Shown: piece after piece, positions 55,855-56,266 of the stretch | Position numbering within the stretch: the stretch's first letter is position 1 | How the letters are laid out: each line of letters starts with the position of its first letter | Source of the DNA: Escherichia coli 042 | GTDB taxonomy: Bacteria > Pseudomonadota > Gammaproteobacteria > Enterobacterales > Enterobacteriaceae | Length of the DNA stretch: 64,000 nucleotides | Assembly (NCBI RefSeq): GCF_000027125.1 | Contig: NC_017626.1 | Reading direction: 5' to 3' (one strand) | Program-made: the position numbers and the translations under genes | The notes under the pieces: generated by a model | Told to the model about the DNA's origin: nothing | The model's input: only the letters and a program-made list of their open reading frames with translations | Database searches by the model: none

Positions 55855-56266
55855 TGCTCTCTCTGTTTTTGCAAATTACCCCTCACTTTGAAGGGATCGG
55901 AGCTATAAAAATGGTTTTAGGTACATTCCTCAAATTGAGGATTGTGGAAAAACCAATGGGGTAGCCTTTTCCCCCAATGGGGATTTTCGAAAGAATCAAT
56001 GGGTTAGGCCATCGTGCAAATTTGCACTCTGCCAGCCAACGCAATTTCTCGTTGGCGGAAATATCAGGTATTTACTGAACGAACGATCTACCAGTCTGTT
56101 CAGTTACCAGTTGCACATGGCTGTTTCATGTGAGGACGGAGTTTTTTTCGGACATCACTATTGGGTACAGCAATTTCGCGAGCAATACGCACGCGTAACA
56201 AATATGCCTAGCATCTTAGCTACGTGCTGACAAATTTGCGATACTTCCCATCCTGTAGTGTGTTTG

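What the first reader, a model, noticed from the sequence alone, without database searches (positions are those of the whole stretch)
55954..56027. Phased CAATGGG repeats and a 14-bp perfect palindrome in the gap between the PerC-like and Doc-like genes
CAATGGG occurs three times at 55954, 55976 and 55997, which is 22 and 21 bp apart and so on one face of the helix. It is followed by the perfect palindrome GTGCAAATTTGCAC (56014–56027) and two further inverted repeats. This looks like a structured regulatory region or a small RNA locus downstream of the Doc-like gene.
Basis: seen in the sequence. Interest (0 to 1): 0.35.

Follow-up and report, generated by a model that had tools for sequence, protein, structure and literature searches.

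The report
Phage-satellite array of Roi/IHF sites
The repeats and the palindrome are real and lie in a conserved non-coding block near the end of E. coli phage satellites (PICIs); the block is built from copies of the short "palindrome plus IHF site" segment found inside the roi gene of lambda-like phages, so it is most likely a protein-binding DNA array linking the satellite to its helper phages, not a small RNA.

Summary
The three CAATGGG copies are not equivalent. Copies 1 and 3 lie in IHF-consensus boxes (WATCARNNNNTTR; the first is degenerate). Copy 2 is the dyad CCCCCAATGGGG. Together they form two ~40-bp units, each a 13-nt dyad followed by a box that starts 17.5-18 bp from the dyad centre. 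After them come the invariant palindrome and a third dyad+box unit.

The window holds a ~20-kb EcCIMP1-like PICI inserted at the yicC stop codon. The same module lies at the integrase-distal end of many otherwise unrelated E. coli PICIs, in at least 10% of complete genomes.

Each unit is homologous to an internal segment of lambdoid-phage roi genes. Different roi alleles carry different dyads, always symmetric, plus the gene's only IHF consensus. PICI arrays hold one unit per roi allele type. Kapi1, a proven PICI helper, has a roi segment identical over 44 nt to unit 1 of related islands.

Best reading: an IHF-bent DNA array that binds helper Roi-family proteins, acting as decoy or sensor. Binding was not tested. 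There is no support for a small RNA, a cos site, integrase arm sites, or a link to Doc, which is inserted cargo.

The parts
55906..56132 (+). Whole conserved terminal module, downstream of PerC and upstream of the cargo/att region
   Evidence: Shared at 90-100% identity with other E. coli islands. Positions 55984-56067 are shared even with PICIs that are otherwise unalignable.
55906..55968 (+). Tract homologous to codons ~37-57 of lambdoid-phage roi (unit 1 plus ~20 nt of upstream roi coding remnant, no longer in an ORF)
   Evidence: 84% nucleotide identity to roi of phages JLK-2012 and Lahn2. tblastn aligns KNGFRYIPQIEDCGKTNG with Roi KNGVIRHPQIEDCGRING. Alignment A2.
55927..55941 (.). Unit 1 dyad TCCTCAAATTGAGGA (JLK-2012/H-19B roi type)
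   Evidence: (I16).
55951..55963 (+). Unit 1 degenerate IHF-type box AACCAATGGGGTA; holds CAATGGG copy 1
   Evidence: Two mismatches to WATCARNNNNTTR. It starts 18 bp from the dyad centre. Strain A20 has one mismatch; other islands have a perfect box here.
55971..55983 (.). Unit 2 dyad CCCCCAATGGGGA (PA5/VT2-Sakai roi type); holds CAATGGG copy 2
55994..56006 (+). Unit 2 perfect IHF consensus AATCAATGGGTTA, preceded by the A/T-rich TTTTCGAAAG; holds CAATGGG copy 3
   Evidence: Consensus match. ATCA starts 18 bp from the dyad centre. Invariant in all module copies.
56014..56027 (.). Perfect palindrome GTGCAAATTTGCAC, 7 bp after the IHF box
   Evidence: Invariant apart from a central A/T change in 11 distinct module variants. 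Extended to 11-bp arms in an O157:H7 island. Replaced by the related dyad GAGTTGCAAATCTGCAACTC in another island.
56035..56056 (.). Dyad GCCAACG-N8-CGTTGGC of a third dyad+box unit
   Evidence: In cf-PICIs the same position carries AACGCAATTTTGCGTT.
56062..56074 (+). IHF-consensus box TATCAGGTATTTA of the third unit
   Evidence: Consensus match. ATCA starts 17.5 bp from the dyad centre.
56074..56132 (.). Two further inverted repeats (ACTGAAC/GTTCAGT and CACATG/CATGTG), found only in EcCIMP1-like islands and weakly conserved
   Evidence: Arms partly lost in CDF6 and ECAMP047 without compensating changes.
56196..57943 (-). Context: inserted cargo (Doc/Fic toxin gene 56267-56728 and a 351-aa ORF6N-like gene 56737-57792) that separates the module from the att arm
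   Evidence: Replaced by ~90 bp in strain A20. Pfam and PHROG hits.
57959..57982 (+). Context: doubled motif CGTGTACATAAGGGTGTACATAAT, the likely integrase arm-type site. A second copy lies at 38054-38077.
   Evidence: Direct repeat found. The layout resembles the doubled motif of HE-PICI attP sites (PMC10111431).
58052..58057 (+). Context: right-hand copy of the crossover block GAATAA (left-hand copy 37941-37946, at the yicC stop codon). The island spans ~37947-58057.
   Evidence: Alignment with the empty site of K-12.

Best explanation
The finding is the core of a conserved non-coding module near the integrase-distal end of E. coli phage-inducible chromosomal islands (PICIs).

Shown here:
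- The module is a tandem array of units. Each unit is a short dyad of variable sequence, an A-rich spacer, and an IHF consensus box whose ATCA starts 17.5-18 bp from the dyad centre. An invariant palindrome follows, then another unit.
- The units are homologous to a ~50-bp internal segment of lambdoid-phage roi genes (Rha-type DNA-binding domain plus KilAC domain).
- In roi, the dyad differs between alleles but stays symmetric, and it sits next to the gene's only IHF consensus.
- PICI arrays carry one unit for each of several roi allele types.

Inferred:
- The module works as double-stranded DNA. IHF bends each box, and Roi-family proteins from resident or infecting lambdoid or P22-like helper phages bind the cognate dyads.
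- The satellite end would then form an allele-specific Roi/IHF nucleoprotein complex.
- That complex either titrates the helper's Roi (interference) or reports the helper's presence to the satellite (sensing).

The roles of the palindrome and of the units with no phage cognate found are unknown. They may be sites for further proteins brought together by the IHF bends.
For: 1. Island type and position. The island is an EcCIMP1-like PICI with integrase, AlpA, AntA, Ash, DUF927 primase, iterons, P22-type ejection genes, a second AlpA and PerC.

2. Distribution. The module lies at the integrase-distal end of PICIs inserted at yicC/dinD, thrW (pao, vat), yejO, clpS, fis, phoQ and a lambda-like capsid gene. 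Their other genes differ. It is present in 543 of 5426 complete E. coli genomes. A sister unit is present in 1313 of 5426.

3. Unit geometry. Of 47 distinct dyad-bearing units, 43 have the dyad centre 17.5-18 bp before ATCA, across 10 or more unrelated dyad sequences. In units that share nothing else, ATCA(A/G) and TTA persist while the four middle bases vary: TGGG, CGGG, TAGC, CCAG, CAAG, GTAT, TCAG.

4. Homology to roi.
- Window unit 1 is 84% identical to JLK-2012 roi.
- In an O157:H7 PICI, unit 1 is 93% identical to JLK-type roi, unit 2 is 87.5% identical to VT2-Sakai/PA5-type roi, and a fourth unit is 86.5% identical to a roi-like gene of Stx1a phages.
- Alignment A2 shows these roi dyads at one position: CCTCAAATTGAGG, CCTGCATTGCAG, CCCCCAATGGTGG, CCTCCAATGGAGG.

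5. Constraint inside roi. The Roi N-terminal domain is ~82% conserved except for a hypervariable patch over this segment. Across 40 patch variants, the four residues after the conserved Pro co-vary (PQIE, PALQ, PAMQ, PPM[VEG], APMA, PPLV) as a DNA dyad would require. HK022 roi and JLK-2012 roi each hold exactly one WATCARNNNNTTR match, directly after the dyad.

6. Prior report, recalled and not re-read. Clerget & Boccard 1996 (J Bacteriol 178:4077) reported that Roi binds a site inside its own gene next to an IHF site, and that IHF stabilises the binding.

7. Helper link. Kapi1, the experimentally proven helper of EcCIMP1 (PMC11773190), encodes Roi (Kapi1_032). Its segment is identical over 44 nt to unit 1 of the EcCIMP1-like islands CDF6/L004.

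8. Against neutral relics. PICI units keep only the hypervariable patch of roi, not its well-conserved flanks. Their dyads are at least as symmetric as the coding versions (CCCCCAATGGGGG against CCCCCAATGGTGG).
Against: - No binding or expression data exist for the module.
- The location of the Roi site in HK022 is recalled from an abstract I could not re-read.
- EcCIMP1 of strain MP1, the only tested relative, lacks the module yet still excises and is transduced at a very low rate by Kapi1. The module is therefore not needed for excision.
- In this window the unit 1 box is degenerate.
- Strain SCU-316, whose chromosome matches this gap at 99.8% identity, shows no second place matching the module core, hence no close roi copy of the unit.
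- The palindrome and the third unit have no phage counterpart in 50,697 phage records.
- Within roi, conservation of the IHF box could reflect the encoded I-N-x-L-G rather than IHF binding.
- Full arrays have a 54-bp period (18 codons) and stay open in one frame in some islands. An origin by in-frame duplication, or even a coding role, is not fully excluded.
Confidence: 0.5

Rival explanations
1. Architectural accessory of the satellite's end. In this reading the array is a set of IHF bends, plus sites for satellite or host proteins, that helps excision/integration, replication or packaging, without involving Roi.
For: It is always the last conserved element before the att region. It holds several consensus IHF sites in phase, 54 bp box to box. 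IHF arrays are typical of attP, cosB and origins (established knowledge).
Against: - The likely arm-type sites are different motifs placed close to the core: doubled TGTACATA here and GTCAC repeats in M7424.
- The module is inverted relative to att and the island backbone in cf-PICIs compared with this island.
- Its distance from the core varies from ~20 bp to 2 kb.
- A lambda-type cosN is absent from the window and lies ~1.3 kb from the module in cf-PICIs.
- The primase iterons are GTTGGTTCA, found elsewhere.
- EcCIMP1 excises without the module.
Confidence: 0.2
2. Functionless recombination scars. In this reading, fragments of helper roi genes were left at a recombination-prone end of the satellites and spread by horizontal exchange.
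For: - PICI late zones capture helper DNA (PMC10111431).
- Unit 1 keeps ~20 nt of roi coding flank and is 44/44 identical to Kapi1 roi in some islands, which suggests recent exchange.
- The number of units varies through loss between repeated boxes.
- The MP1 element does without the module.
Against: - The fragments are all trimmed to the same ~50-bp segment, all face the same way and keep constant dyad-to-box spacing.
- They retain the most variable part of roi rather than its conserved flanks.
- Dyad symmetry and the IHF consensus persist although the reading frame is destroyed.
- The 84-bp core is 91-100% identical across islands whose flanks are unalignable.
Confidence: 0.15
3. RNA element. 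In this reading the module is a small RNA, a 3'-UTR structure, or tandem terminators/insulator at the end of the PerC or late transcription unit.
For: - Many short hairpins; the fold is more stable than shuffles.
- Hairpins such as CCCCCAAUGGGG(G/A)UUUU resemble weak terminators on the + strand.
- Pair 75-88 of the third dyad shows A-U to G-U changes on the + strand.
Against: - No Rfam family at E<=1.
- No promoter-like site and no + strand terminator-like site in the gap.
- z-scores are equal on both strands.
- The module is read in sense from PerC here but in antisense from the late operon in cf-PICIs.
- The palindrome never varies, so it gives no covariation support.
- Stems are 5-6 bp with 1-3 nt loops.
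- The sequence conserved across all unit types is the IHF consensus, a DNA signal.
Confidence: 0.08

Closest known systems
The Roi/IHF binding region inside the roi gene of phage HK022 and other lambdoid phages (Clerget & Boccard 1996; recalled, not re-read)
   Same: Sequence homology of the units at 84-93% to particular roi alleles. Same dyad types, same spacer, same IHF consensus at the same distance.
   Different: Here the segment is non-coding, repeated in tandem with a different allele type in each unit, followed by an extra palindrome, and located at the end of phage satellites rather than in a phage nin region. Binding was not tested.
RIB/RIP elements (BIME-1) of E. coli: palindromic REP units flanking an IHF site at the 3' ends of transcription units (Boccard & Prentki 1993; Oppenheim et al. 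1993; from knowledge)
   Same: Extragenic arrangement of short palindromes around a consensus IHF site, lying between or after transcription units.
   Different: No sequence relation to REP. The module is confined to PICIs and roi genes rather than spread around the chromosome. The dyad sequence varies from unit to unit.
IHF-containing nucleoprotein sites of phages: lambda attP arms and cosB (from knowledge; PMC6739421, PMC6092414)
   Same: Phased protein-binding repeats plus IHF bends near a mobile element's end.
   Different: The core-proximal doubled motif and cosN are other sequences at other places. Orientation and distance to att are not fixed.
Helper sensing by satellites (SaPI Stl-antirepressor pairs; helper-induced alpA in Gram-negative PICIs; PMC6092414, PMC11773190)
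   Same: Would likewise be a helper-specific recognition device of a satellite, with several specificities side by side.
   Different: Recognition would be through DNA sites for a helper DNA-binding protein, not through a satellite repressor protein. No link to alpA induction has been shown.
P1/P7 parS centromere (IHF site flanked by ParB boxes; from knowledge)
   Same: An IHF bend that brings flanking protein-binding motifs together.
   Different: No sequence similarity was examined or seen, and I saw no partition genes among the annotated island genes. This is only an analogy.

Membership tests
IHF binding site | Match to consensus WATCARNNNNTTR with an A/T-rich stretch 5' of it | tested here: met
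   55994-56006 AATCAATGGGTTA and 56062-56074 TATCAGGTATTTA. These are 2 of only 8 matches in the 64-kb window. Both are preceded by GAAAGA or GGAAAT. The unit 1 box at 55951-55963 has 2 mismatches.
IHF binding site | IHF binds and bends the DNA | not testable with these tools
   Needs EMSA, footprinting or ChIP.
roi-internal dyad+IHF segment (Roi site) | Sequence homology to the segment of roi that encodes residues ~43-60 | tested here: met
   (84% over 63 nt), alignment A2, (93%, 87.5%, 86.5% for three units of an O157:H7 island; 44/44 nt with Kapi1 roi in CDF6-type islands).
roi-internal dyad+IHF segment (Roi site) | 13-nt dyad CC-N4-(N)-N4-GG with an IHF box at a fixed distance | tested here: met
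   43 of 47 units have the dyad centre 17.5-18 bp before ATCA. The same layout holds in five roi alleles.
roi-internal dyad+IHF segment (Roi site) | Bound by Roi protein, with binding stabilised by IHF | not testable with these tools
   Reported for HK022 roi according to my recollection of Clerget & Boccard 1996. The paper is not held.
Small RNA / known RNA family | Match to a curated covariance model | tested here: not met
   No Rfam match at E<=1 in 53000-59000 on either strand.
Small RNA / known RNA family | Own promoter and terminator, and a strand-specific structure signal | tested here: not met
   No promoter-like site in the gap and only one weak - strand terminator-like site. z = -3.3 against -3.6 on the two strands. 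The palindrome is invariant. Transcription itself cannot be tested here.
Intrinsic terminator of PerC or Doc | G+C-rich hairpin directly followed by a T run on the transcribed strand | tested here: not met
   No + strand site. The single - strand site (56014->55997) has a 6-bp stem with 3 G-C pairs.
Lambda-type cos site of PICIs | cosN GGGCGGCGACCT next to the repeats | tested here: not met
   No match with 0 mismatches in the window, and the five matches allowing up to 2 mismatches (best: 1 mismatch, at 46910-46921) all lie outside the module. In cf-PICIs cosN lies ~1.3 kb from the module, next to terS.
Integrase arm-type sites of attP | Same motif in both arms at a fixed distance and orientation from the crossover | tested here: not met
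   That pattern is shown by the doubled TGTACATA motif, ~84 bp and ~122 bp from the GAATAA core. The module is on one side only, 2 kb from the core here, and inverted in other PICIs.
Replication iterons (ori) of the PICI primase | Repeats identical to those next to the primase gene | tested here: not met
   The iterons are GTTGGTTCA at 47909-48019 and 55410-55530, not CAATGGG.
EcCIMP1-like PICI (context of the finding) | Integrase, two alpA genes, AntA, Ash, DUF927 primase, P22-type ejection genes, PerC; high nucleotide identity to EcCIMP1 | tested here: met
   98% identity over 40641-49938 and 97.6% over 53748-55644. Gene content. The integration site differs: yicC instead of thrW.

The most novel reading that the evidence does not exclude
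Roi and the PICI module are two sides of an arms race.

- In roi, the operator lies inside the DNA that encodes the hypervariable part of Roi's own DNA-binding domain. Site and protein therefore change together, which would explain the amino-acid covariation imposed by the dyad.
- Satellites answer by collecting a tandem set of decoy or sensor sites, one per Roi allele.
- Roi would then be a helper-phage cue or target for Gram-negative PICIs. The 2018 PICI survey states that their inducing signal remained unidentified (PMC6092414).
Probability: 0.2. Interest if true: 0.85.

Novelty: new variant of a known kind. Interest (0 to 1): 0.6.

Why it matters
If the array binds helper Roi proteins, it would be a DNA-based, multi-allele device by which phage satellites recognise or disarm their helpers. 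That differs from the repressor-antirepressor pairs known from SaPIs.

It would give a concrete candidate, Roi, for the helper factor that Gram-negative PICIs interact with. Roi is a nin-region Rha/KilAC protein and is present in Kapi1.

It would also explain two things: why one short patch of an otherwise conserved phage DNA-binding domain is hypervariable, and why its residues co-vary as a DNA palindrome demands.

The module is present in 10-24% of complete E. coli genomes, including O157:H7 and O26 strains that carry Stx phages with the matching roi alleles. Any effect on helper induction could therefore bear on the biology of Stx phages.

Even without a proven function, the module is a useful marker of the integrase-distal end of E. 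coli PICIs.

Tried and rejected
1. Known RNA family: the Rfam scan of 53000-59000 found nothing.
2. Promoter/terminator scan: nothing convincing in the gap.
3. cos site: there is no exact lambda cosN in the window and none of the near-matches lies in the module. Related cf-PICIs have cosN elsewhere, next to terS.
4. Integrase arm sites: I first took the 24-bp TGTACATA direct repeat for the att core. Comparison with the K-12 empty site showed the crossover is at GAATAA, the yicC stop, and that the doubled motif is arm-like. The CAATGGG repeats play no such role.
5. Decayed roi-like pseudogene as the whole explanation: only ~63 nt of unit 1 align to roi coding sequence and the rest is a repeat array.
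6. Breadth outside E. coli: two scans of 100,044 species-representative genomes gave no true hit. The 59 hits of the relaxed pattern were single chance matches in unrelated taxa.
7. Sequence strings in the literature: no paper contains them. The Roi paper itself is not held.
8. Looking for the module in the one experimentally studied relative, EcCIMP1 of MP1: it is absent there.
9. Phage counterparts of the palindrome and of the CAGCCAACGCAAT unit: none in the phage collection.
10. The search for related loci with Roi returned only close relatives of one allele, so it added little allele diversity at the DNA level. Protein-level diversity came instead.

Full report
**1. Observation**

CAATGGG lies at 55954, 55975 (not 55976) and 55997 on the + strand. 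GTGCAAATTTGCAC lies at 56014-56027. Three more inverted repeats follow.

The heptamer occurs only five times in the window on both strands, against 10.3 in shuffles. Three copies within 50 bp on one strand are expected about 8e-5 times. That is my own arithmetic; the figure printed omitted one factor. The stretch 55920-56150 folds better than all 200 shuffles on both strands, with z = -3.3 and -3.6.

**2. Context**

The gap 55855-56266 lies between two convergent genes. One is a PerC-family gene (55567-55854, +; Pfam E = 2e-29). The other is a Fic/Doc gene (56267-56728, -).

The gap matches the chromosome of E. coli strain SCU-316 at 99.8% identity, and that record's annotation was used for context. 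The genes around it form a ~20-kb island between yicC and dinD:
- integrase
- a helix-turn-helix (AlpA-type) gene
- AntA and Ash proteins
- a TOPRIM/DUF927 primase
- P22-type ejection genes
- a second alpA on the opposite strand
- PerC

The island is 98% identical over 9.3 kb, and 97.6% over a further 1.9 kb, to EcCIMP1. EcCIMP1 is a PICI shown experimentally to be induced and transduced by the P22-like phage Kapi1 (PMC11773190).

Comparison with the empty site of K-12 puts the crossover at GAATAA, the yicC stop codon. The island spans ~37947-58057. A doubled motif TGTACATA..TGTACATA lies ~122 bp inside the left end and ~84 bp inside the right end. This layout resembles the doubled motif described for HE-PICI attP sites (PMC10111431). 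These motifs, not CAATGGG, are the plausible integrase arm sites.

In strain A20 the sequence after 56195 continues for ~90 bp into that arm motif. The Doc gene and its 351-aa neighbour (56196-57943) are therefore inserted cargo, and their proximity to the repeats is incidental.

**3. Anatomy**

I compared the region with other E. coli islands and with IMG/VR contigs. The finding turns out to be part of a modular array.

Each unit has three parts:
- a short dyad, typically 13 nt of the form CC-N4-(N)-N4-GG
- an A-rich spacer
- a box ATCA(A/G)NNNNTTA(G/C), which is the IHF consensus WATCARNNNNTTR

In 43 of 47 distinct dyad-bearing units, the dyad centre lies 17.5-18 bp before ATCA. At least ten unrelated dyad sequences occur. 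Full arrays have three or four units with boxes 54 bp apart.

The window has two such units 43 bp apart:
- U1: dyad 55927-55941, degenerate box 55951-55963
- U2: dyad 55971-55983, perfect box 55994-56006

The palindrome follows 7 bp after the U2 box. Then comes a third unit, with dyad 56035-56056 and box 56062-56074.

The 21/22-bp phasing is a consequence of this layout.

**4. Distribution**

The 151-bp core occurs in 543 of 5426 complete E. coli genomes. The sister unit CAGCCAACGCAATTTTGCGTT...ATCAGCAAGTTACC occurs in 1313.

In every context I inspected, it lies at the integrase-distal end of a PICI:
- yicC/dinD
- thrW, next to pao or vat
- yejO
- clpS, including O157:H7
- fis
- phoQ, including O26:H11
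- inside a lambda-like capsid gene (helper-embedded PICIs)

In capsid-forming PICIs it lies between att and a conserved 93-aa gene (phrog_1561, function unknown). There it has the opposite orientation relative to the island backbone compared with this window.

No species-representative genome of GTDB carries it. No complete phage genome carries the palindrome part.

**5. Origin of the units**

The only phage matches are inside roi genes, which encode an Rha-type DNA-binding domain plus a KilAC domain.
- Window unit 1 is 84% identical to JLK-2012 roi.
- In an O157:H7 PICI, three different units match three different roi-family alleles at 93%, 87.5% and 86.5%.

Alignment A2 shows that roi alleles carry different dyads at the same position: CCTCAAATTGAGG, CCTGCATTGCAG, CCCCCAATGGTGG and CCTCCAATGGAGG. 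Each is followed by ATCAATNNNTTAGG. These are the same dyad types that stand side by side in PICI arrays.

At the protein level, the Roi N-terminal domain is ~82% conserved except for a hypervariable patch over this segment. In 40 patch variants, the residues after the conserved proline co-vary (PQIE, PALQ, PAMQ, PPM[V/E/G], APMA, PPLV) exactly as a DNA palindrome requires. HK022 roi and JLK-2012 roi each contain a single IHF consensus, directly after the dyad.

This fits my recollection of Clerget & Boccard (1996): Roi binds a site within its own gene next to an IHF site, and IHF stabilises the complex. I could not re-read that paper.

Kapi1, the proven helper of EcCIMP1, encodes Roi right after ninF. 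Its segment is identical over 44 nt to unit 1 of the EcCIMP1-like islands of the CDF6 type.

**6. Mechanism**

Shown:
- the architecture
- the conservation
- the homology to the roi segment
- the IHF consensus

Inferred:
- The module acts as DNA.
- IHF bends each box.
- Roi-family proteins of resident or incoming helpers bind the cognate dyads.
- The satellite thereby titrates or senses helper Roi in an allele-specific way.

Four arguments speak against mere recombination scars:
- All units are trimmed to the same segment.
- They keep roi's most variable part rather than its conserved flanks.
- They keep symmetry and spacing although the reading frame is lost.
- Their dyads are at least as symmetric as the coding versions.

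Three points weigh against an essential role:
- EcCIMP1 of MP1 lacks the module yet excises.
- The unit 1 box in this window is degenerate.
- The SCU-316 chromosome, which matches this gap, shows no close roi copy.

The palindrome is invariant, so it offers no covariation. No partner for it was found. In other islands it is extended to 11-bp arms, or replaced by a related longer dyad.

**7. Alternatives**

- A small RNA or terminator is unlikely.
- A cos site is excluded.
- Arm sites and replication iterons are other sequences.
- A Roi-independent architectural IHF array, and neutral relics, remain possible.

**8. Novelty**

The PICI papers I read describe att motifs, cos sites, ori sites and the Bro, late and replication zones. 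They do not describe this module. A full-text search for its sequences found nothing.

It is a new variant of a known kind: IHF-assisted protein-binding sites, specifically the roi-internal site. Here it is arrayed and displaced into satellites. Function remains untested.

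Noticed in passing
window 47909-48019 and 55410-55530: There are two clusters of the iteron GTTGGTTCA, each with three direct and three inverted copies. One lies right after the primase gene. The second, 7.4 kb away just upstream of PerC, has the mirror-image arrangement. This recalls the ori/crr pair of P4. EcCIMP1 of MP1 has both clusters too.
   Followed up: partly
window 56196-57943: This cargo segment holds a Doc/Fic toxin gene (56267-56728, -) directly preceded by a 351-aa gene (56737-57792, -). The latter has a weak ORF6N (Bro-network DNA-binding) match instead of a classical Phd antitoxin. The segment replaces ~90 bp of strain A20, between the module and the att arm motif. 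MP1 carries different cargo at the same spot.
   Followed up: partly
window 37941-37946 / 58052-58057 and 38054-38077 / 57959-57982: The island is inserted at the stop codon of yicC, with crossover block GAATAA. A doubled TGTACATA motif lies ~122 bp and ~84 bp from the core. The geometry is like the doubled TGTATTGC motif reported only for HE-PICIs, but the sequence and the target differ.
   Followed up: yes
window 48646-53304: The PICI 'late zone' holds homologues of P22 ejection proteins (DUF2824, gp7, DNA ejection protein, injection protein). There are no capsid or terminase genes and no exact lambda cosN. How such islands are packaged is unknown. Pick et al. note the same for EcCIMP1.
   Followed up: no
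roi genes: L002 1394-2116, L097 601-1326, L098, L099, L100, L184 13120-13842: Within an otherwise ~82% conserved Rha-type domain, about 20 residues are hypervariable. The four residues after a conserved Pro co-vary as the DNA dyad demands (Q with E, A with Q, P with V/E/G). This is a case of a DNA palindrome constraining protein sequence.
   Followed up: partly
L005 4383-4664 (and L101, L102, L036, L037): A conserved 93-aa gene (phrog_1561, no Pfam match, function unknown) is always the last gene before the module in capsid-forming PICIs. Its stop overlaps the ATCAGCAAGTTACC box on the other strand.
   Followed up: partly
L021 and L035 arrays: Full arrays have an exact 54-bp (18-codon) period and stay open in one reading frame across three units (...PQIEDCGRINGLVLLSRHPPMGVFETINSLGLLPRFPALQVFEIINGLG...). 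This suggests an origin by in-frame duplication of a roi segment. No gene is annotated there.
   Followed up: no
L186 ~300-330 (- strand), downstream of PerC in E. coli MP1: In EcCIMP1 of MP1 the module's place after PerC is taken by unrelated sequence that contains AGCGGCGACCTG, which matches the lambda cosN GGGCGGCGACCT shifted by one base (10 of 11 overlapping positions). I did not examine it further.
   Followed up: no
L035 4781-4800, 5308-5330, 5425-5450; L101 3150-3175: Another repeated dyad family, CCCCGATATGG(G/T)(T/G)ATCCCCATATCG, together with a copy of 'TTTTTTCCGGTTAA..GTTAATCAGGCTGGTGG', flanks the module in the clpS and phoQ PICIs. It is unexplained.
   Followed up: no
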